Shown: positions 5,953 to 28,506 of the stretch, piece after piece
Layout of the letters: each line of letters begins with the position of its first letter
Position numbering within the stretch: position 1 is the first letter of the stretch
DNA from: a virus
Taxonomy: Duplodnaviria > Caudoviricetes
Length of the DNA: 64,000 nucleotides
Direction: 5' to 3' (one strand)
IMG/VR virus record: IMGVR_UViG_2595698621_000001
Location: 1 to 64,000 of that record
Made by a program: the position numbers and the translations under genes
The notes under the pieces: model-generated
What the model was told of the DNA's origin: nothing
The model's database searches: none
The model's input: only the letters and a program-made list of their open reading frames with translations

Positions 5953-6408
5953 CGTCGCCCTCCAGACGGTTGCGGATACTCGAAAGCGATTCTGCCTGGT
6001 GGTTGCGCGTCCACGCGAGCATCTCCTCGTCGTCGAACCCGCAGTTCTGACAGCAACTCGCGTCGTTCAGGTAAATCCGACCGTTGACAACCTGGTGCGC
6101 AGGATTCTCGACGGTCGAACCGCAGTACTCGCACTCGCTCACGCTGACCACCCGTAACTGCACGAATTACAGTGCTGATGAGTCTTGCCGAGGTTCTCGC
6201 GTTCCTCGGTGTCGTTGCTTCCGCACCGCGGACAGGTCGTGTCGTCGTTCGTCATTTCTTTTCTGACCTCATCTGCACGTACACGGCCTGGTATCATAAA
6301 AGTGCGTACCACGGTGAAAGTGGACAGAAACACCGGCGTCTCTGGATGTCAAGATATACCTCCCGTGTCGCGTTAGCTGTAGACGAGCGGAGGGAGTATT
6401 AACATCAT

Positions 6409-7810: not shown

Positions 7811-10751
7811 AAATTCACAGAACCTAGCGAACCTTTCGCCCGAAGATGTGGTACTGCCCGCGAAACGATACGATTCTCCGACTCTCGAGGAGCGGATGAG
7901 CGAGAATGCCTACAACAACATTCTCCCCGCTCGCTATCAGATGAAGGATGAGACAGGAGAAATCGTCGAAGAACAAGAGGACGTTTTCGAGAGGGTGGCG
8001 GAGAACATCGCTCTCGGCGACGTGCCTCATATGCCCGGGATTATCGAGGTAGGTCCCAGCGAGTTCCGACCTGAGTTCCTCGATGAGTTCCCCGACGGCG
8101 AGACGCAGGTCGAGGTCACTGAGGACAACGTGAAGTATCTCGACTACGAAAGCGTCTCCGAGGTTCTCGCACCTGAAGCGCGACGTGACCTCGAGTCCAC
8201 GAAGGACGAATTCCAGGACTTGATGGAGCGACTCGCGTTCATCCCGAACACTCCGACTCTCATCAACGCTGGCGACGAGCTTCAGCAGCTCTCCGCGTGT
8301 TTCGTCAATTCTCCCGAAGACGATATGGAGTCGATTCACGACACCGCGAAGGAAGCGGCGCTCACGTTCCAGTCAGGAGGTGGGATGGGATACGCCTTCT
8401 CTCGACTGCGTCCCTACGGTGACGCTGTGGGTTCGACGGGCGGCATCGCTTCGGGTCCTATCACGTTTATGCGTACCTACGACCAGATGTGTAAGACCAT
8501 CGCTCAGGGTGGTACGCGGCGTGGTGCGCAGATGGGTGTTATGTCGGTAGACCACCCAGACATCATCCAATTTATCCACGCCAAGAACAAGGACGTGAGC
8601 CTCGCGCTTTCGCTGGGTCTCAACGACCCGAAGGACCCGACAAACACCTCCTTCACTGAGGCGCTCGACGAAGCGCGTGGCCTCATCGAGGACGGGAAGG
8701 TTCCGAACTTCCTTCGGAATGCCATCGAGCAGCATCTCTCGAACTTCAACATCTCGGTCGGTGTCACGCACCGGTTTATGGAGGCGCTCGAGGCGGGTGA
8801 GGACTACACGTTCATCAACCCGCGCACCGACGAGCCTCACGTCGCCAGTCAAGAGACGAAGGAACTCTGGTCTCGCTACGACCTCGGACACCACGTCAGC
8901 GTCGGAGAACCGCTGTCTGTCCCCGCGGAGGATGTGTGGGACCATATCGTCGAAGGCGCGTATGAAAACGGAGAGCCCGGTGTTATCTTCCTGGACGAAG
9001 TCAACGACGAGCACTCCTTCGACGTGGACGAGCATCCGGAGCACGAGATTATCGCCACGAACCCCTGCGGCGAGCAACCTCTCGAGGAGTACGAGGCCTG
9101 CAACCTCGCTCATATCAACCTCTCGACCGTCGTTACCGAAGGTGCGCCTGACTGGCGCGAGGTTCGTCCGGAGTATCTCGAAGGCACAGAGGACGAGTGG
9201 ATGGACGAAGAACTCGAGCGTCACGTTCGAGAATTCCTGGACGACGCTATCGACTGGGAAGCGTTCGACCGTCGTATCTACTCGGGCACTCACTTCCTCG
9301 ACAACGTGGTGACGATGAGCGACTTCCCGATTCCAGAAATCGAGGAGACGGTGTCGTCGCTCAGGAAAGTCGGGCTCGGGATTATGGGCTACGCGCAGAT
9401 GCTCGTTCAAATCGGTGTGCCATACGGCACGCCTGCGGGGAACGAAGTGGCGCGTCAGCTTATGCAGTACATCAATCACGAGAGCAAGGCAGAATCTCAT
9501 CATCTCGCTGATGACCGAGGTGCGTTCGACGAGTACGAGAAGTCGAAGTACGCGAACCCGACTCAGTATCCTGAGTGGTTCGAGTCTCACGTCGGTCTCG
9601 ACCCGAGTGACTGGGAAGACGGATTCGAGGTTCGGAATCACAACACGACGACCATCGCTCCTACGGGCACCACGTCGATGCTCGGAAACACGTCGGGCGG
9701 GTGTGAGCCCATCTACTCTGTGGCGAACCTCAAGAACGTGTCTCAGGACATCCAGGGCGAGGACGAGCTCGTTCAATTCGACGACTACTTCCTGCGCGTT
9801 CTCGAGGCGAACGGAGTCAACGTGGAGAAGACGAAGAAGGAGGCATACGAGCTTCTGATGAGCGAGGACGGGTTCGACGGTGCTCACCAACTCAGCACTG
9901 TGCCCGACGCCATCGCCGACCTCTTCGTGACGACGAGCGACCTCTCTGGACGCGAGCACGCGAGTGTTCAGTGCGCGTTCCAGGAAGGAGTCGACTCGGC
10001 CATCTCGAAGACGGTCAACTTCCCATCGACCGCGTCACGCGAGGACGTGCGTGAGGTGTACGAGTACATCCACGCGAACGGCGGGAAGGGCGTGACCGTG
10101 TATGTTGACGGAACCCGGTCGAAACAGGTTCTCTCTACGTCGTCGAACAAGGCCGATACAGAGGACACGGATGACGAGGAACCCGAGAGCGCGTCATCTG
10201 ACGACGCTCAGACGCCTCGGCCTCGCCCGCGACCCGACGTTCTCGACTCGACGGTGTACCCGGTCAACACGGGATATGGCGAGCTTAACGTCTTCGTCAA
10301 CGAGGACAACGCCGGCGACCCGTTCGAGGTGTTCGCAGAAATCGGGAAGTCGGGTGGGTTCACTCACTCGTTCACCGAGGCAGTCGGACGTCTCGTGTCT
10401 CTCGCACTGCGTAGCGGTATCCCGCCCGAAGAAGTCATCGACCAGCTCGATGGCATCCGCTCACCGAAGACGGGCTGGAACACGGGCGGTCAGCAGATTC
10501 AGTCGATTCCGGACGCTGTCGCGCACGCACTGAAGCAACACGACGAAGGAGGGGACGATTCTCTCGACTCTGACCCGGGGGTTGAGGCGGGTGAAACCGC
10601 ACTCCCTAACGGTGGGCAGCAGGAGACAGCGGGTAGCACGACTGCACTCGAGAATGGCGAGTCGCCTGAGTGTCAGGACTGCGGGTCGATGTCTCTCAAC
10701 TACTCCGAAGGCTGTAAGACGTGCGAAGCGTGCGGCTGGAGCGAGTGCTAA
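7803..10751 (+). CDS. nrdJ: class II (B12-dependent) ribonucleotide reductase with TSCPD-like domain and C-terminal Zn ribbon
   Basis: PNTPTLINAG, LSACF, GGGMG, RRGAQM, TNPCGEQ, TIAPTGT, SAISKTVN; C-terminal CxxC..EGCKTCEACGWSEC. Confidence 0.95.
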   Translation: MTENSQNLANLSPEDVVLPAKRYDSPTLEERMSENAYNNILPARYQMKDETGEIVEEQEDVFERVAENIALGDVPHMPGIIEVGPSEFRPEFLDEFPDGETQVEVTEDNVKYLDYESVSEVLAPEARRDLESTKDEFQDLMERLAFIPNTPTLINAGDELQQLSACFVNSPEDDMESIHDTAKEAALTFQSGGGMGYAFSRLRPYGDAVGSTGGIASGPITFMRTYDQMCKTIAQGGTRRGAQMGVMSVDHPDIIQFIHAKNKDVSLALSLGLNDPKDPTNTSFTEALDEARGLIEDGKVPNFLRNAIEQHLSNFNISVGVTHRFMEALEAGEDYTFINPRTDEPHVASQETKELWSRYDLGHHVSVGEPLSVPAEDVWDHIVEGAYENGEPGVIFLDEVNDEHSFDVDEHPEHEIIATNPCGEQPLEEYEACNLAHINLSTVVTEGAPDWREVRPEYLEGTEDEWMDEELERHVREFLDDAIDWEAFDRRIYSGTHFLDNVVTMSDFPIPEIEETVSSLRKVGLGIMGYAQMLVQIGVPYGTPAGNEVARQLMQYINHESKAESHHLADDRGAFDEYEKSKYANPTQYPEWFESHVGLDPSDWEDGFEVRNHNTTTIAPTGTTSMLGNTSGGCEPIYSVANLKNVSQDIQGEDELVQFDDYFLRVLEANGVNVEKTKKEAYELLMSEDGFDGAHQLSTVPDAIADLFVTTSDLSGREHASVQCAFQEGVDSAISKTVNFPSTASREDVREVYEYIHANGGKGVTVYVDGTRSKQVLSTSSNKADTEDTDDEEPESASSDDAQTPRPRPRPDVLDSTVYPVNTGYGELNVFVNEDNAGDPFEVFAEIGKSGGFTHSFTEAVGRLVSLALRSGIPPEEVIDQLDGIRSPKTGWNTGGQQIQSIPDAVAHALKQHDEGGDDSLDSDPGVEAGETALPNGGQQETAGSTTALENGESPECQDCGSMSLNYSEGCKTCEACGWSEC

Positions 10752-11795: not shown

Positions 11796-11868
11796 TTTTA
11801 CTTTCACTCCGGTACGAGAATTTATGGTACCGGGGCGTGTACGACTACGTGGAGGTCGAAGAGAAATG
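11796..11868 (+). promoter_or_regulatory. repeated early promoter/leader cassette copy
   Basis: ACTTTCAC 11800-11807 (second box 11735-11742), TTTATGGTAC, GTGTAC, GGAGG, GAGAAATG. Confidence 0.85.
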
Positions 11869-13005
11869 GCAGACGACGCAAACGACGACGCTCGGATGAA
11901 CAGCAACGTGGAAATCAACTCGGTCCCGCTTGACGCGGTGTCCGACGCAGGCGAGGACGCGGAGGTTCTCGGATTCGCGGTTATGTCAACGACGGGCGAG
12001 CTGGTCGTCCCTCGTGAGTGGTTGCAGGAGCAGTGGGAGCAGTACGACCTGCCCGACGAGATTTTCCCGAGTGAGACGTGGGCCTCGTCCGCGTACAAGC
12101 GGTCGATGTTCCACCTCCTCGACAACGGTCAGGACGAGCAGGTTATGAAGACCGACGCAGGCAAACAGAAGGTCTCGCTCGACGTGAAGGACGGCGCGGG
12201 CAATCAGCGCCACGTCCTGGCGAACACCTGGTTCAGCGCCGACCACCCGAAGGCCGACCAGTTGGAAATCGACGAGTCGGGTGAGTGGCGCCAGGCGACG
12301 CTCGGCATCACCAACTACGACGCTGAGAGTCAGAAGCCTGTCCTGACGCAGGCCATCGACGACGCGCACCCGCTCGCCGACATCTGGGAACAGCTCGAGT
12401 CGCGTATCCGCGAGTTGTACGACACCCACAAGGTGTCTCACAACGGCGACGATATGCGAGACGTCCTGTACGACTTCACGCGCTACTACAGTGACAGTAT
12501 CCCGCTGCGCGACGGCGGTGCGGTGTACTTCGTCCCTGCGAACGACAAGGACACCATCGAGGCCCTCGCCGAGATTTGGGACAAGATGGACGACGAGTTC
12601 AAGCTGCGCGGTCGTGAGACCGAGATTCAGACGATTCCGGTCGTCTCCGACACGGAGCGCAAGGAGCTCGTCGAGAAGCGCGCTATGAAGGTCGTCCGCG
12701 ACGAGGTTGACCGCGTCCTGGAGGACGCCTTCGACGACCTCGAAGACCCGGACGACGAGACGCCCGAGGACGAGATTGTCTCGACCATCGAGAAGGCGCT
12801 CGGCGACCACGCGCAGACGGCGGACGTCTACAACTCGCTCGTGGACGCACGTATCGAGATTCGTGACGTGCTCCAGGACTTCGCGTCCGACATCTCGAGC
12901 GAGGCGCGTCAGGACCTCATCGAGAGCACGCTCGAACGCCTGAGCGACGAGGACGTGGTGACTGACGGCGGACAGGAACGCGACGAGAACGGTCGCTTCG
13001 CCTGA
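11866..13005 (+). CDS. DUF6744/DUF3150-like helical protein
   Basis: PLRDGGAVYFVP motif; strong codon bias. Confidence 0.6.
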   Translation: MADDANDDARMNSNVEINSVPLDAVSDAGEDAEVLGFAVMSTTGELVVPREWLQEQWEQYDLPDEIFPSETWASSAYKRSMFHLLDNGQDEQVMKTDAGKQKVSLDVKDGAGNQRHVLANTWFSADHPKADQLEIDESGEWRQATLGITNYDAESQKPVLTQAIDDAHPLADIWEQLESRIRELYDTHKVSHNGDDMRDVLYDFTRYYSDSIPLRDGGAVYFVPANDKDTIEALAEIWDKMDDEFKLRGRETEIQTIPVVSDTERKELVEKRAMKVVRDEVDRVLEDAFDDLEDPDDETPEDEIVSTIEKALGDHAQTADVYNSLVDARIEIRDVLQDFASDISSEARQDLIESTLERLSDEDVVTDGGQERDENGRFA

Positions 13006-13020
13006 AGCGACTCGTTCCTC

Positions 13021-13087
13021 CTTCGTCGGGCACGCCCCGCAGAAGTGCCCCTGACGATGACTGGATTCGGGCCCGGTCGAAACGAGG
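13021..13087 (+). ncRNA. hammerhead ribozyme, type III
   Basis: GUC cleavage triplet 13025-27; stem I GGGCAC/GUGCCC; CUGACGA core 13051-57; stem II GACUGG/CCGGUC; GAAA 13079-82; stem III CUUCGU/ACGAGG; complementary loops GCCC/GGGC. Confidence 0.85.
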
Positions 13088-13122
13088 AAACCGATGAAGG
13101 CAAAAACTGAGGTGTGAACCCT

Positions 13123-14388
13123 ATGGGAAGCGGAATGGGTGCCCCCGACGAAGAAATGAATCGTCGGCAGGTGCTCCAGAAGCGACGTATCGACCAGATG
13201 GCAGACGGTACCGCCGTCGGCGGGAGCAGTCCCGACGGTGACGGCAAGGTATCGACATCTGACGCGAGCGCGGACGAGATGCTCGCACACTACAAAGGAA
13301 ACAAGGACGACACGACGATGACCAAGGAAAAACAGAAACTCAAGTCACCGCGGTACAGCGACGTTCCAGCATACACTCTCGAGACGCTCGATATGGACAC
13401 TCTCCGGGACGAGGTGTTCCAGGCGCTCGACTTCAACGAGTCCGAACGGCAGGCAGCAGGCGCTATCGCAAAGAACGACGTCTCGGATATGACGCAGGCG
13501 CAGATAGCGGACCTCGCCGGTGTCAGTGCGTCAACGGTCGGAAACACCATCCAGAAACTCGAGACGCGCAAGAACCCGACCTCGAACCAGCGTGAGATTC
13601 TGAAGTTCGCACGCGAGAACCCAGACCTGACGCCGACGGAAATCGGCAACGAGCTCGACAAGAAGACGACGAACGTGAAGCGCGCGCTCATCCCGTATCG
13701 GCACGAGCGTATCGTCTGCGAAGTCGAGGTTGACGACACGACCGAAGAGACGCAAGAGACGACCGACGAGACGAAAGACGACGACGGACAGGATGTCTCG
13801 CACCGCGACGACAAGGGCGAAGAGAGCGACGTGTCTGACGCGGTAGAGAAGGACCTCGCAGGAGGCGACGTGACCTACAAGTACGACACCGATTCCTCGA
13901 AGCCCGAGACGCGAGGTGGGAAGGAGCTCACGAAGTCGGCCATCACCGGTGTCACCGACCTCCTCGATATCTTCCGCGAGCAAGAGCGTCGGTTGCAGGA
14001 AGTCGAAGCGCGTGACCCTGAGCAGGTCCCGCAGTCGCTGAACGGACGAGTCGCCTCGCTCGAGACGCAGGTCGAAGGCGTGCAGAGTGTCGCCGATAGA
14101 ATCGAGAACCAACAACTCGAGCTTGAGCGTCACGTCGAGGACCTCCAGGAACAGTGCGAAGACGTTGCCGACGCCGCAGACCTCGACCTCGAGGACACGA
14201 CGCTCGGGCAAAAGGTCGAACGTATCCAGGACTCGCTATCGTCGCACAAGCGGGCCATCGAGGACTTGCGCGAGAGCGACACGGACGGTAGCACGTCGTT
14301 CTCGACGGAAGAGAAGCGGAAAGTCATCGTCTCGCTCGCGCAGAACGGAGAAGACGACCTCATCGACCGCGTCCTCGAGGAGATGTAA
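13123..14388 (+). CDS. double-HTH plus coiled-coil protein (putative regulator)
   Basis: TQAQIADLAGVSASTV and TPTEIGNEL HTH motifs, heptad coiled coil; SD GAGGTG upstream. Confidence 0.7.
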   Translation: MGSGMGAPDEEMNRRQVLQKRRIDQMADGTAVGGSSPDGDGKVSTSDASADEMLAHYKGNKDDTTMTKEKQKLKSPRYSDVPAYTLETLDMDTLRDEVFQALDFNESERQAAGAIAKNDVSDMTQAQIADLAGVSASTVGNTIQKLETRKNPTSNQREILKFARENPDLTPTEIGNELDKKTTNVKRALIPYRHERIVCEVEVDDTTEETQETTDETKDDDGQDVSHRDDKGEESDVSDAVEKDLAGGDVTYKYDTDSSKPETRGGKELTKSAITGVTDLLDIFREQERRLQEVEARDPEQVPQSLNGRVASLETQVEGVQSVADRIENQQLELERHVEDLQEQCEDVADAADLDLEDTTLGQKVERIQDSLSSHKRAIEDLRESDTDGSTSFSTEEKRKVIVSLAQNGEDDLIDRVLEEM

Positions 14389-14525
14389 CAGGCGCGGTCT
14401 AAGTAGTCTTTCGGCGGTACAGGCGTTCAACTCACTATTCTCGACGGGTCGTAGGACACTTTCACTTAGGTACGCACTTTTATGGTACGTCCTCGTGTAC
14501 GATTGAGTGCGGAGGAAGAAAAGAT

Positions 14526-24012: not shown

Positions 24013-24324
24013 TTAGTACCTCTTACCGTGTTTGTACTCGCGGTCACGGTTCGCCGCGTTCTTCTCTTTGATTTCTTCCTCGAGGTCGATACCTTCCGTC
24101 TCTGCGTGGTCCATCACTCGGATGACGATGTCCGCAAGCTCCTCGGCGTACTCCTGCTCGTCGCCTTCGCGGTCAGCCTCGAGAGCTTCGGACACCTCCG
24201 AGTGGATGAGAGCGAGGATTTTCGCTCGGCTGCGTTCGTCTACTCCTGCGTCGTCGCCTTCGTGGAAACCGCTTTCCTCGGCGATGAGCCACGCTTCTTG
24301 CTGTAGGTCGGTGAAGTCAGTCAT
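24013..24324 (-). CDS. MazG-like NTP pyrophosphohydrolase
   Basis: LALIHSEVSEALEA..EELADIVIR..K...N..R.YKHGK. Confidence 0.85.
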   Translation of the reverse strand: MTDFTDLQQEAWLIAEESGFHEGDDAGVDERSRAKILALIHSEVSEALEADREGDEQEYAEELADIVIRVMDHAETEGIDLEEEIKEKNAANRDREYKHGKRY

Positions 24325-25772
24325 TCTTCTGCTTTGAGGTTGTGAACCGGCGTCAGTGTTTCGAGAATCTCTGCTGTCTCGTCGATACGCTCGAGGACCA
24401 CTTCCTGGTCCTTGTACGCCATCGGCGCTTCGTCGAGCGTGTCCTCGTTGACCGAAGTCGAGAAGATGCCGTCCATCTCCTGCGTGAAGGTAGCGAGGTC
24501 GAACGTGTCGAACGCCCAACGACGAGAACCGCGTCGTCCGGCGCCGTGAGGGGCGCTCGAGTTCCAGGCGTCGTTGCCCTTACCTCGGACGATAATCGAC
24601 CCGTCGCGCATATTGAACGGGATAACGCCCTTCTCTCCGTCGTGGACGCGGGTCGCCCCCTTTCGGATGATGAGGTCCTCGAAGTCGATGTAGTTGTGTG
24701 TCGATACCACCTTCTCTTTCACGTCCGTCTGAAGGATAGCAGTGACGTTTTGCGTCATCAGATGACGCGACTCTGCCGCGTAGGTCTGCGCGAAAATCAT
24801 ATCACGCAGGTACCCGTGACGGTCCTCGCCTTCGAGGTAGTCGAGGTCGCTGCCTCCTGCGTTCTCTCGAACGTAGTCGGTTACCTGCTTCAGGCGGTTG
24901 ACCATCTCACCGATACGCTCGCCTTCGAGACGAGAGCGAATCTCATCGGTGTCCTTCCAATCCTCGCCCATACCGCCCTGCACCCAGTTGAGGAGTTCTC
25001 GGTCGGACACGTCGTCGAGGTCGGGTTTGTAGTACGCGCTCGGGATTTGAGAGAGACGGTGTCGCACTTCCTTCGCTCTGTCGTCACAGGCCTGGTGCGC
25101 CTGCTCCTGCCAATACTGAGCAATCGCCATCCCGATACCTCGAGAACCGGAGTGAACGACGACCCAGAAATCACCCGTCTGCTCCGAACGGGAAATCTCG
25201 ACGAAGTGATTGCCACCACCGAGCGTTCCGATGCTCGTGATTGCTCGGTTCACGTTGTATCCCACGCGCTTGCAGAGGTCGAGGAGATACTCCTTCCCGT
25301 AGTCAGGAGACTCGATGTACCCACCTGACCAGTTCTCGTTGAGCATCTCGAGTTTCTCCTCGCACTCGTCCCACGGGAACTCGTTGACCATATGATATTG
25401 ACGAGACGCCTTCGTATCTCCCCAGGTGTTTCGACCCATCGGGACGCGGTGACGAATCTGCTCGTCGAGCGACCGCATAAGGTCGGAGTTCCCGAGTCGA
25501 TTCTCGAGCATCTCAGGCCGACCGAGGTTGTACGCGGTCATCCCGCAGCCGATGTCTACTCCTACGGTGTTCGGGACGATTCTCTCGCCGAGCGGCATCG
25601 TAAACCCGATAACCGCTCCTGCGCCGGCGTGCCCGTCGGGCATAATCTTCACGTCGCCCTCAAACGCCTCGTGGTTGACCATCCTCTGAACCTGCTCGAC
25701 GAAGGTCTCGTCCACGGCGTCGGTTTTCACGTCGGCGGATGTGTACTCGCCGTCGATTTGTAGTTGACTCAT
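24321..25772 (-). CDS. rtcB: RtcB RNA 3'-phosphate/2',3'-cyclic phosphate:5'-OH ligase
   Basis: MPDGHAG, VGVDIGCG, GTLGGGNHF, HSGSRG, HNY, RKGA, SAPHGAGR, DEAPMAYK. Confidence 0.95.
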   Translation of the reverse strand: MSQLQIDGEYTSADVKTDAVDETFVEQVQRMVNHEAFEGDVKIMPDGHAGAGAVIGFTMPLGERIVPNTVGVDIGCGMTAYNLGRPEMLENRLGNSDLMRSLDEQIRHRVPMGRNTWGDTKASRQYHMVNEFPWDECEEKLEMLNENWSGGYIESPDYGKEYLLDLCKRVGYNVNRAITSIGTLGGGNHFVEISRSEQTGDFWVVVHSGSRGIGMAIAQYWQEQAHQACDDRAKEVRHRLSQIPSAYYKPDLDDVSDRELLNWVQGGMGEDWKDTDEIRSRLEGERIGEMVNRLKQVTDYVRENAGGSDLDYLEGEDRHGYLRDMIFAQTYAAESRHLMTQNVTAILQTDVKEKVVSTHNYIDFEDLIIRKGATRVHDGEKGVIPFNMRDGSIIVRGKGNDAWNSSAPHGAGRRGSRRWAFDTFDLATFTQEMDGIFSTSVNEDTLDEAPMAYKDQEVVLERIDETAEILETLTPVHNLKAEE

Positions 25773-28431: not shown

Positions 28432-28506
28432 TTGTCCCCGCGAGATTTGAACTCGCGTCCTGAGCTCCAAAGGCCCAGAGGATTGGCCAAACTACCCCAG
28501 GGGACT
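28432..28506 (-). tRNA. tRNA-Gln(UUG)
   Basis: Cloverleaf AGTCCCC..TGGGC-CTTTGGA-GCTCA..GCGAG-TTCAAAT-CTCGC-GGGGACA-A; resembles haloarchaeal tRNA-Gln; no CCA encoded. Confidence 0.9.

What the first reader, a model, noticed from the sequence alone, without database searches (positions are those of the whole stretch)
13021..13087. Complete type III hammerhead ribozyme in an archaeal virus early operon
Seen in sequence: the intergenic RNA after the stop at 13005 folds as stem III 5' CUUCGU (13021-26), cleavage C13027 (GUC triplet), stem I GGGCAC/GUGCCC (13028-33/13045-50), core CUGACGA (13051-57), one extra U (13058), stem II GACUGG/CCGGUC (13059-64/13073-78), GAAA (13079-82) and stem III 3' ACGAGG. 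Loop I begins GCCC and loop II ends GGGC, which allows a loop-loop pseudoknot like those in natural hammerheads. Established: an extra nucleotide between A9 and G10.1 is tolerated, as in the CChMVd viroid hammerhead, and cleavage gives 2',3'-cyclic phosphate and 5'-OH ends. Inference: it splits the early-promoter transcript between the DUF6744-like gene and the HTH regulator, giving the regulator mRNA a 5'-OH end. An alternative pairing UUCCUC (13015-20) with GAGGAA (13084-89) could switch it off, possibly coupled to ribosomes terminating at 13005.
Basis: partly seen in the sequence, partly recalled or inferred. Interest (0 to 1): 0.92.

Follow-up and report, generated by a model that had tools for sequence, protein, structure and literature searches.

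The report
Hammerhead ribozyme in a halovirus operon
A 67-base self-cutting RNA motif (a type III hammerhead ribozyme) lies between two co-transcribed genes of a virus of salt-loving archaea and is kept in all its known relatives, so it is very probably real, but such ribozymes have been known in haloviruses since 2011.

Summary
The motif is at 13021-13087 (+), exactly as described. It has three 6-bp stems, the core CUGACGA...GAAA, a GUC cleavage triplet (C13027) and one extra U (13058) between A9 and G10.1. A descriptor scan finds it once in the window. One of 200 shuffles gave any hit with stems of at least 4 bp, and none gave 6/6/6.

All four distinct relatives (HCTV-16, HVTV-1/HVTV-2, HCTV-5) carry it at the same gene junction. 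The core is invariant and stems I and II co-vary. HVTV-1 has two copies flanking an extra gene. HVTV-1 copy b and HCTV-5 have a 17-nt hairpin where the window has the single U.

Rfam misses the window copy even at E<=10. It scores only the canonical HVTV-1 copy, below threshold.

One promoter-like cassette precedes the DUF6744 gene and the next follows the HTH gene, so the ribozyme most likely splits a bicistronic mRNA.

The proposed off-switch pairing is not conserved. Cleavage is untested.

Hammerheads in haloviruses HF1/HF2 are published (PMC3088659), and this scan has noted them in other haloviruses. This is a new member of a known kind.

The parts
11801..11844 (+). Promoter-like 44-nt cassette (TATA-like TTTATGG) ahead of the two-gene unit
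   Evidence: The pattern matches at 11801-11844 and 14459-14502 (+), both with 0 mismatches, and at 6277-6320 (-) with 3. It matches 0 of 100 shuffles. The same cassette precedes the DUF6744 gene in L001, L002 and L003. Promoter function is inferred.
11866..13005 (+). DUF6744-family gene (ORF listed from ATG 11824; likely start ATG 11866)
   Evidence: ORF 11824..13005. Pfam DUF6744, E 8.2e-14. ATG 11824 lies inside the TATA-like part of the cassette. The tblastn match to relatives begins at residue 24.
13021..13026 (+). Hammerhead stem III, 5' strand (CUUCGU)
   Evidence: Stem III is 6 bp in 5 of 5 copies, and position 7 is a non-standard pair in 5 of 5.
13027..13027 (+). Predicted cleavage site: C17 of the GUC triplet. 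Scission 3' of this base would leave a 2',3'-cyclic phosphate on 13027 and a 5'-OH on G13028.
   Evidence: Position read. The end chemistry is established knowledge of hammerheads. Cleavage was not tested.
13028..13050 (+). Stem-loop I (GGGCAC / 11-nt loop / GUGCCC)
   Evidence: Across the 5 copies, 25 of 25 cells in the first five pairs are standard pairs, and 4 of 5 positions show changes on both sides.
13051..13057 (+). Catalytic core C3-A9 (CUGACGA; N7 = C)
   Evidence: The core is CUGAYGA in 5 of 5 copies.
13058..13058 (+). Extra U between A9 and G10.1
   Evidence: At the same position HCTV-16 has U, HVTV-1 copy a has nothing, and HVTV-1 copy b and HCTV-5 have a 17-nt hairpin.
13059..13078 (+). 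Stem-loop II (GACUGG / 8-nt loop / CCGGUC), closed by G10.1-C11.1
   Evidence: Across the 5 copies, 30 of 30 cells in the first six pairs are standard pairs, and 4 of 6 positions show changes on both sides.
13079..13081 (+). Core G12 A13 A14
   Evidence: Invariant in 5 of 5 copies.
13082..13087 (+). Stem III, 3' strand (ACGAGG; A15.1 pairs with U16.1)
13094..13117 (+). Conserved 7-codon upstream reading frame (MKAKTEV*) in the leader of the HTH gene; it contains the SD-like GAGGUG (13109-13114)
   Evidence: Read. The frame is MKPKTEV*, MKDATEV* and MKENTEV* in HCTV-16, HVTV-1 and HCTV-5. Translation is not shown.
13123..14388 (+). HTH-domain protein gene (421 aa)
   Evidence: Pfam HTH_24 E 6.3e-7 and MarR_2 E 4.6e-6. 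Annotated 'HTH domain-containing protein' in HCTV-16.
14459..14502 (+). Next copy of the promoter-like cassette, marking the end of the unit

Best explanation
Window 13021-13087 (+) encodes a genuine type III hammerhead ribozyme. The window is a 103,257-bp halovirus genome with terminal repeats, 89.5% identical over this region to Haloarcula virus HCTV-16 (genus Hacavirus, family Druskaviridae).

The ribozyme lies in the 117-nt spacer of a bicistronic unit: promoter-like cassette, DUF6744 gene, hammerhead, 7-codon upstream frame, HTH gene, next cassette.

Shown:
- the motif;
- its uniqueness against shuffles;
- its presence at the same junction in all available relatives;
- an invariant core;
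- compensatory changes in stems I and II.

Inferred:
- As the spacer is transcribed, the RNA folds and cuts itself after C13027.
- The DUF6744 message then ends 22 nt past its stop codon with a 2',3'-cyclic phosphate.
- The HTH message starts at G13028 with a 5'-OH and a compact two-hairpin leader.
- This uncouples the stability and translation of the two messages.
- The single extra U after A9 is expected to be extruded from the stem II / G.A stack and tolerated.
For: - Anatomy and coordinates.
- Chance: 1 window hit, against 1 of 200 shuffles with any hit and 0 of 200 with 6/6/6 bp; 0 of 100 shuffles for the sequence pattern.
- Conservation: the 6 similar phage records are 4 distinct viruses, and all carry the motif between the same genes.
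- A covariance model built only from the window and HCTV-16 finds HVTV-1 copy b (35.8 bits, E 1.9e-8), HVTV-1 copy a (32.8 bits, E 1.6e-7) and HCTV-5 (15.4 bits, E 0.036) in 81,617 bases.
- Covariation: stem I has 25/25 standard pairs with double changes at 4 of 5 positions. Stem II has 30/30 with double changes at 4 of 6. Stem III is exactly 6 bp in 5/5.
- Core C3-A9, G12-A14, A15.1-U16.1 and C17 are identical in 5/5 copies except N7 (C or U).
- Rfam Hammerhead_3 independently scores the insert-free HVTV-1 copy a at 35.7 bits, E 1.6e-4.
- The two differences between the window and HCTV-16 inside the ribozyme are both structure-neutral: N7 C/U, and U.G versus C-G in stem II.
- A one-base insert at this position occurs in unrelated hammerhead candidates: L037, L051 and L070 with U, and L162/L190 with C.
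- Operon context: cassettes flank the unit and none lies inside it, in the window and in 3 of 3 relatives.
- Precedent: in HF1/HF2 a hammerhead lies 13 nt before the helicase start codon, and the mapped 5' end of the early transcript is within 3 nt of its cleavage site (PMC3088659, Discussion passage).
Against: - No Rfam hammerhead model matches the window copy, even at E<=10 over 201 bases. The best relative scores 35.7 bits, below the gathering score of 48.5.
- The extra U sits between A9 and G10.1. From recalled structural work, this is where a catalytic metal site lies. A saltern hammerhead with a different 2-nt core insertion needed about 300 mM Mg2+ for 0.13 per min (PMC3088659, section 9), so activity could be low or conditional.
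- Thermodynamic folding does not favour the active fold once flanks are included. For 97 nt the MFE is -33.2 against -25.7 kcal/mol with the hammerhead enforced. The whole-spacer MFE uses a 10-bp helix, 13020-29 with 13091-13100, that buries the cleavage site.
- No RNA data could be found.
- Only 5 copies from 4 closely related viruses exist, so the covariation rests on few independent events.
Confidence: 0.8

Rival explanations
1. It is a conditional (regulated) hammerhead, or one half of a cut-and-rejoin system. Competing helices would keep it off until some signal arrives, or the 5'-OH and cyclic-phosphate ends would be rejoined by RtcB. In HVTV-1 that could circularise the gene-26 RNA lying between its two ribozymes.
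For: - In HVTV-1 copy b and HCTV-5 the 17-nt insert is a 4-bp hairpin with a GNRA loop plus a linker (CAUCG / CGUAG). The predicted fold pairs this linker with core bases U4-G8.
- In the window the leader 13091-13100 pairs 10 of 10 with 13020-13029. In relatives the figure is 9, 8 and 8 of 10.
- The window encodes RtcB at 24321-25772 (-), Pfam E 7.4e-62.
- HVTV-1 gene 26 is flanked by two hammerheads sharing the same stem III sequence.
Against:
- The leader and the cleavage-site strand are each conserved for other reasons (stem III; start of the upstream frame), so their complementarity may be incidental.
- RtcB homologues are found in 3 of 4 records searched (HCTV-16, HCTV-5, HF2) but not in HVTV-1, the virus with two ribozymes.
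- Only two insert-bearing sequences exist.
- There are no RNA data.
Confidence: 0.1
2. It keeps the hammerhead fold but is catalytically dead or very slow. It would then serve only as a structured spacer, for example a protective 5' or 3' structure or a protein-binding site.
For: - The insertion at A9/G10.1 is present in 4 of 5 copies.
- Rfam models fail on those 4 copies.
- The active fold is not the predicted MFE in context.
Against: - A purely structural role would not hold every catalytic base fixed (CUGAYGA, GAA, A15.1-U16.1, C17 in 5/5) while the stems drift.
- HVTV-1 copy a has a fully canonical core.
Confidence: 0.07
3. It is a box C/D small RNA. CGAUGA at 13055-60 and 13092-97 would be the C and C' boxes, and CUGA at 13106-09 the D box.
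For: Weak Rfam hits over 13050-13112: sR28 14.9 bits, sR47 15.0 bits, E 0.07-0.17; sR28 20.4 bits in HCTV-16.
Against: - The scores are far below the gathering scores of 39-40.
- The 'C box' is the hammerhead core, and the 'D box' overlaps the SD-like GAGGUG before the HTH start codon.
- The covariation fits the three-stem junction, not a C/D fold.
Confidence: 0.02
4. It is a chance match in G+C-rich intergenic DNA.
For: Core words such as CUGAYGA and GAAA are short.
Against: - 0 of 200 shuffles gave a 6/6/6 hit.
- The motif is conserved with compensatory changes at the same junction in 4 of 4 relatives.
Confidence: 0.01

Closest known systems
Type III hammerhead ribozymes (Rfam RF00008, clan CL00010), including prokaryotic and phage examples with a loop I / loop II contact (Perreault et al. 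2011, PMC3088659)
   Same: Same topology: ends in stem III, and hairpins closing stems I and II. Same 13 core bases, GUC cleavage triplet and G10.1-C11.1 closing pair. Stems of 5-6 bp. Complementary bases are available between loops I and II.
   Different: There is one extra U between A9 and G10.1, or a 17-nt hairpin there in two relatives. The window copy scores below E 10 with the Rfam model. The host is an archaeal tailed virus of the Druskaviridae, for which I found no report.
HHphage, the hammerhead of haloviruses HF1/HF2 (Perreault et al. 2011; annotated as ncRNA 10292-10359 in NC_003345.2)
   Same: It is a hammerhead in a haloarchaeal tailed virus of the same order (Thumleimavirales). 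It lies in an intergenic spacer just upstream of a gene in a polycistronic unit, and the virus also encodes an RtcB-type ligase.
   Different: HHphage is annotated as type II and carries its atypical insertion at positions 2a/2b near C3. The window element is type III with its insertion after A9. Neither Rfam RF00008 nor my CTGAYGA...GAAAC pattern matches HF2, so the two are not alignable copies.
Chrysanthemum chlorotic mottle viroid (+) hammerhead with an extra A in the core (De la Pena and Flores 2001)
   Same: It is a natural type III hammerhead that tolerates one extra base in the consensus core. A review legend confirms 'the extra A ... in its plus hammerhead structure' (PMC3705267).
   Different: That the extra base lies exactly between A9 and G10.1 is my recollection. 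I saw only the 2001 paper's title, in reference lists. It is a viroid RNA replicon, not a DNA virus operon, and the base is A, not U.
HHmeta, the saltern-metagenome hammerhead variant (Perreault et al. 2011)
   Same: It comes from a hypersaline viral source and has a core insertion, which suggests that halophile hammerheads tolerate or exploit core insertions at high ionic strength.
   Different: The insertion site is different (near C3 and stem I). Its genomic context is unknown. Its activity was measured, whereas here it was not.

Membership tests
Hammerhead ribozyme, type III (structural definition) | Three helices around one junction, with the free ends in stem III and hairpin loops on stems I and II | tested here: met
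   Stems of 6, 6 and 6 bp at 13021-13087. The same architecture is found in 5 of 5 copies.
Hammerhead ribozyme, type III (structural definition) | Core C3 U4 G5 A6 N7 G8 A9 and G12 A13 A14 | tested here: met
   CUGACGA at 13051-57 and GAA at 13079-81. Invariant apart from N7 in 5 of 5 copies.
Hammerhead ribozyme, type III (structural definition) | A15.1-U16.1 pair, and a cleavage-site base N17 that is not G | tested here: met
   A13082-U13026 and C13027, in a GUC triplet. Same in 5 of 5 copies.
Hammerhead ribozyme, type III (structural definition) | G10.1-C11.1 pair directly abutting A9 and G12 | tested here: inconclusive
   The pair G13059-C13078 is present and abuts G12, but U13058 separates it from A9. 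One-base inserts at this position occur in other natural candidates. The effect on activity is unknown.
Hammerhead ribozyme, type III (structural definition) | Helices supported by compensatory changes in homologues | tested here: met
   Double changes at 4 of 5 positions in stem I and 4 of 6 in stem II, with no non-standard pair in 55 cells. The sample is small: 5 copies from 4 viruses.
Hammerhead ribozyme, type III (structural definition) | Tertiary contact between loops I and II | tested here: inconclusive
   A helix of 4-5 bp is possible in 5 of 5 copies, with CCC/GGG becoming CUC/GAG in HVTV-1 copy a. Shuffled loops reach the same length in 22-60% of 2000 trials.
Hammerhead ribozyme, type III (structural definition) | Site-specific self-cleavage giving 2',3'-cyclic phosphate and 5'-OH ends | not testable with these tools
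   No sequencing run was listed. A bench assay is needed.
Rfam RF00008 Hammerhead_3 (operational database membership) | Covariance-model score at or above the gathering score of 48.5 bits | tested here: not met
   No hit for the window at gathering score or at E<=10. Only HVTV-1 copy a scores, at 35.7 bits. This is a curation threshold, not a property of the ribozyme class.
HF1/HF2 HHphage-type halovirus hammerhead | Type II topology with an insertion at 2a/2b next to C3 | tested here: not met
   The window element is type III with its insertion after A9. HF2's element is annotated as type II and is not matched by RF00008 or by my pattern.
Archaeal box C/D sRNA | C/D and C'/D' boxes with a family-level model score | tested here: not met
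   Best scores are 14.9-20.4 bits against gathering scores of 39-40.

The most novel reading that the evidence does not exclude
The Druskaviridae hammerheads may be a naturally modular, switchable form of the ribozyme. The A9/G10.1 junction would be an insertion port. It is empty in HVTV-1 copy a, holds a single U in the window and HCTV-16, and holds a 17-nt GNRA hairpin in HVTV-1 copy b and HCTV-5. The linker of that hairpin base-pairs with catalytic bases U4-G8. Cleavage upstream of the HTH regulator would then be gated by salt, Mg2+, temperature or a protein that opens the anti-core helix. In HVTV-1 the two ribozymes flanking gene 26 would release an RNA with ligatable ends that RtcB could circularise.
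Probability: 0.15. Interest if true: 0.75.

Novelty: new member of a known kind. Interest (0 to 1): 0.45.

Why it matters
The finding adds an unannotated family of self-cleaving ribozymes to cultivable archaeal viruses: HCTV-1-like, HCTV-16, HVTV-1/2 and HCTV-5 on Haloarcula. Standard Rfam annotation cannot see this family.

The virus-host pairs can be grown in the laboratory. They therefore offer a tractable way to ask what an operon-internal hammerhead does for an archaeal virus. They also offer a natural series for asking how much the A9/G10.1 junction tolerates: no insert, one U, or a 17-nt hairpin.

The general phenomenon, hammerheads in halovirus operons, is already published, so the advance is incremental unless the insert variants prove active or regulated.

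Tried and rejected
- Rfam: gathering scan of the whole window found only a tRNA at 28432-28506 (-). The E<=10 scan of 12950-13150 gave 7 weak hits and no hammerhead.
- Box C/D reading: rejected. Scores are 15-20 bits against thresholds of 39-40, and the 'C box' is the hammerhead core.
- More family members:
  - The search for related loci with the HTH protein found none.
  - With a DUF6744 alignment it found only HVTV-1 and HCTV-5.
  - tblastn of both proteins against phages found only the same 6 records.
A tighter family-signature scan was complete and gave 7 stretches, of which only HVTV-1 (2 sites) and HCTV-5 are family members.
  - The metagenome scan (61 stretches) and the genome scan (24 stretches) gave 88 pattern matches, of which 18 passed my stem filter. 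All 18 are unrelated hammerhead-like motifs, or marginal matches, from other contigs.
  - The three haloarchaeal matches (L139, L142, L216) failed the stem filter and look like chance matches in G+C-rich sequence.
- Bug: my filter wrongly dropped HVTV-1 copy b because it counted stem II past the hairpin midpoint. This was corrected in later scripts.
- MAFFT alignments A1, A2, A6 and A7 misalign the co-varying stems. The model-derived A4 places stem II of two copies in an unaligned insert. I therefore did not use the count of structure pairs and tabulated the pairs from explicit coordinates instead.
- Additional copies: none in the own genome. Only 3 weak extra hits (11-13 bits) in the three relatives' whole genomes.
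- HF2: my pattern and RF00008 found nothing. The annotated type II element was located from the record instead.
- RNA evidence: no RNA holder was listed and no run of any kind could be listed.
- Recombination: I tested for a breakpoint at the ribozyme between the window and HCTV-16. Identity falls gradually from about 13200 inside the HTH gene, not at the ribozyme, so the idea was rejected.
- Gene 26 of HVTV-1 has no Pfam match and no homologue outside HVTV-1/HVTV-2.
- Literature: no paper in the library links hammerhead or ribozyme with HVTV-1, HCTV-1, HCTV-5, Druskaviridae or Haloarcula viruses. No paper describing a hairpin inserted at G10.1 turned up.
Dataset S1 of PMC3088659 holds the saltern hammerhead alignments and could contain relatives of this family. 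I could not see it.
- The 2001 CChMVd paper is not held.

Full report
**The observation**

- stem III CUUCGU / ACGAGG;
- C17 at 13027 in a GUC triplet;
- stem I GGGCAC / GUGCCC around an 11-nt loop;
- core CUGACGA;
- one extra U (13058);
- stem II GACUGG / CCGGUC (one U.G pair) around an 8-nt loop;
- GAA, then A15.1.

It lies in the 117-nt spacer between the stop codon of a DUF6744-family gene (ends 13005) and the start codon of an HTH-domain gene (ATG 13123).

Two controls show it is not a chance match.
- A sequence pattern for the conserved parts matches once in the window and in 0 of 100 dinucleotide-preserving shuffles.
- A general type III descriptor of my own finds only this site on either strand. 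One of 200 shuffles gave any hit with stems of at least 4 bp, and 0 of 200 gave a 6/6/6-bp hit.

**The genome**

The window belongs to a 103,257-bp virus record with direct terminal repeats. The 2.6 kb around the finding is 89.5% identical to Haloarcula virus HCTV-16 (Hacavirus, Druskaviridae). It is about 74% identical to HVTV-1, HVTV-2 and HCTV-5 (Tredecimvirus). Only these 6 records (4 distinct viruses) match, by DNA or by either flanking protein.

**Conservation**

All four relatives carry the motif at the same junction. HVTV-1 has an extra gene (gene 26, 196 aa) between the DUF6744 and HTH genes, with a hammerhead on each side of it. That makes five copies in total.

A covariance model built from the window and HCTV-16 alone recovers the three other copies at 35.8, 32.8 and 15.4 bits (E 1.9e-8, 1.6e-7, 0.036) in 81,617 bases. 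It finds no second copy in the window's own genome and no convincing one in the relatives' genomes.

I tabulated base pairs from explicit coordinates:

| Stem | Standard pairs | Positions with changes on both sides | Note |
|---|---|---|---|
| I | 25 of 25 cells (first five pairs) | 4 of 5 | |
| II | 30 of 30 cells (first six pairs) | 4 of 6 | |
| III | all standard through pair 6 | none | exactly 6 bp in 5 of 5; seventh position non-standard in 5 of 5 |

All catalytic positions are identical in 5 of 5 copies, except N7, which is free to vary (C or U). The two differences between the window and HCTV-16 inside the ribozyme are N7 and a U.G to C-G change in stem II.

This is the pattern expected of a working hammerhead.

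**Why databases miss it**

Rfam reports no hammerhead for the window at gathering score, nor at E<=10 on a 201-base stretch. In the relatives only HVTV-1 copy a is scored: Hammerhead_3, 35.7 bits, E 1.6e-4, against a gathering score of 48.5. This copy has no insertion after A9. None of the relatives' records annotates an RNA in these spacers.

**The A9/G10.1 position**

| Copy | Content between A9 and G10.1 |
|---|---|
| Window | U |
| HCTV-16 | U |
| HVTV-1 copy a | nothing |
| HVTV-1 copy b | 17 nt |
| HCTV-5 | 17 nt |

The 17-nt inserts are a 4-bp hairpin closed by a GNRA loop (GCGC-GUGA-GCGC; CCGC-GCGA-GCGG, one compensatory pair), followed by a 5-nt linker.

For these two copies the hammerhead helices are part of the predicted minimum-energy fold. 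However, that fold also pairs the linker (CAUCG / CGUAG) with core bases U4-G8. This would have to open for catalysis.

Single-base inserts at the same place occur in unrelated hammerhead candidates from viral and metagenomic contigs: L037, L051 and L070 with U, and L162/L190 with C. A review legend confirms an extra A in the CChMVd plus hammerhead (PMC3705267). Its exact position is my recollection of De la Pena and Flores 2001, of which I saw only the title.

**Context**

A 44-nt promoter-like cassette with a TATA-like TTTATGG occurs at 11801-11844 and 14459-14502 (+), and at 6277-6320 (-). It matched 0 of 100 shuffles.

In each of the three relatives, one cassette precedes the DUF6744 gene and the next follows the HTH gene. 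None lies in between, including across HVTV-1's three-gene version. The spacer contains no such cassette.

The two genes are therefore very probably one transcript, and the ribozyme would cut it. Promoter function and 'early' timing are inferences.

The spacer from the stop codon to stem III is 15-18 nt in all five copies.

- The alternative helix UUCCUC/GAGGAA exists and is used in the predicted MFE of 13010-13095. It is 6 bp only in the window and HCTV-16. In HVTV-1 and HCTV-5 the best spacer helix is 4-5 bp, which 44-99% of shuffled spacers reach.
- The loop I / loop II helix is possible in 5 of 5 copies, and CCC/GGG becomes CUC/GAG in HVTV-1 copy a. Shuffled loops reach the same length in 22-60% of trials. 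It is allowed but not shown.

**Points against the reading**

- With flanks, the active fold is not the thermodynamic optimum: -33.2 against -25.7 kcal/mol for 97 nt.
- The whole-spacer MFE uses a 10-bp helix between 13020-13029 and the leader 13091-13100 that buries the cleavage site. In relatives 9, 8 and 8 of 10 pairs are kept.
- Cleavage would therefore have to be co-transcriptional, or the helix may be regulatory or incidental.
- A saltern hammerhead with a different core insertion needed very high Mg2+ (PMC3088659, section 9).
- No sequencing run could be listed, so there is no expression evidence either way.

**Comparison with what is known**

Perreault et al. 2011 (PMC3088659; I read the abstract, section 9 and Discussion passages) reported hammerheads from saltern viromes and 'HHphage' in haloviruses HF1/HF2. 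HHphage lies 13 nt upstream of a helicase gene in an early polycistronic unit, and a mapped transcript 5' end falls within 3 nt of its cleavage site.

The HF2 record annotates this element as a type II hammerhead at 10292-10359, and also a tRNA-splicing ligase. Dyall-Smith and colleagues mention it as a conserved non-coding feature (PMC7230728, one Discussion passage).

The window element differs in topology (type III) and in insertion site. It belongs to another virus family. I found no paper linking hammerheads to HCTV-1, HVTV-1, HCTV-5 or the Druskaviridae.

Earlier notes of this scan (unchecked AI notes) report hammerheads in several other haloviruses, including a type III one and a type II one with a hairpin in the core. 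So the scan has seen this kind of element before, on other DNA.

**RtcB**

I confirmed the gene at 24321-25772 (-) (Pfam E 7.4e-62). Homologues are present in HCTV-16, HCTV-5 and HF2 but not in HVTV-1 (3 of 4 records). A dedicated cut-and-rejoin system is therefore not supported, although the host's own ligase could act.

**Verdict**

This is a real, conserved and previously unannotated type III hammerhead. It most likely processes a bicistronic DUF6744-HTH transcript. It is a new member of a known kind.

The natural series at the A9/G10.1 junction (no insert, one U, 17-nt hairpin) and the ribozyme-flanked gene in HVTV-1 are the parts worth a bench test.

Noticed in passing
window 13094-13117 (+); L001:2798-2821, L002:3506-3529, L003:2836-2859: A 7-codon upstream reading frame lies between the ribozyme and the HTH start codon: MKAKTEV* in the window, and MKPKTEV*, MKDATEV* and MKENTEV* in relatives. 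Its length and frame are conserved in 4 of 4 viruses. It ends 3-5 nt before the main ATG and contains the SD-like GAGGUG, which suggests translational coupling.
   Followed up: partly
window 11801-11844 (+), 14459-14502 (+), 6277-6320 (-): A repeated 44-nt promoter-like cassette. The first ATG of the DUF6744 ORF (11824) and the annotated starts of HCTV-16 gp31, HVTV-1 gene 28 and HCTV-5 gene 32 fall inside or before a cassette. Those start codons are therefore probably mis-called, and the likely start here is ATG 11866.
   Followed up: partly
L002:2738-2798 and L002:3416-3496 (HVTV-1): HVTV-1 carries an extra gene (gene 26, 196 aa) exactly at the ribozyme site. It has no Pfam match and is unique to HVTV-1/HVTV-2. 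A hammerhead lies on each side, and the two share the same stem III sequence. Double cleavage would release an RNA of about 678 nt with ligatable ends.
   Followed up: partly
L002:3452-3468 (HVTV-1 copy b); L003:2782-2798 (HCTV-5): A 17-nt insert lies between A9 and G10.1. It is a 4-bp hairpin with a GNRA loop plus a linker, and the predicted fold pairs the linker with core bases U4-G8. I found no description of such an insert.
   Followed up: partly
window 13020-13029 with 13091-13100: The leader CCGAUGAAGG is fully complementary (10 of 10, with one G.U) to the strand that holds the cleavage site. This helix is in the whole-spacer MFE. In relatives 9, 8 and 8 of 10 pairs are kept. Its meaning is unknown.
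   Followed up: partly
window 24321-25772 (-): An RtcB RNA ligase gene (Pfam PF01139, E 7.4e-62). Homologues are present in HCTV-16, HCTV-5 and HF2 but not in HVTV-1.
   Followed up: partly
window 28432-28506 (-): A tRNA gene, the only Rfam match at gathering score in the window (38.3 bits).
   Followed up: no
window 13200-13900 versus L001: Identity to HCTV-16 is 97-100% across the DUF6744 gene and the spacer. It falls to 54-65% inside the HTH gene (13400-13700) and then recovers to about 80-87%. This looks like a mosaic or fast-evolving middle part of the regulator.
   Followed up: no
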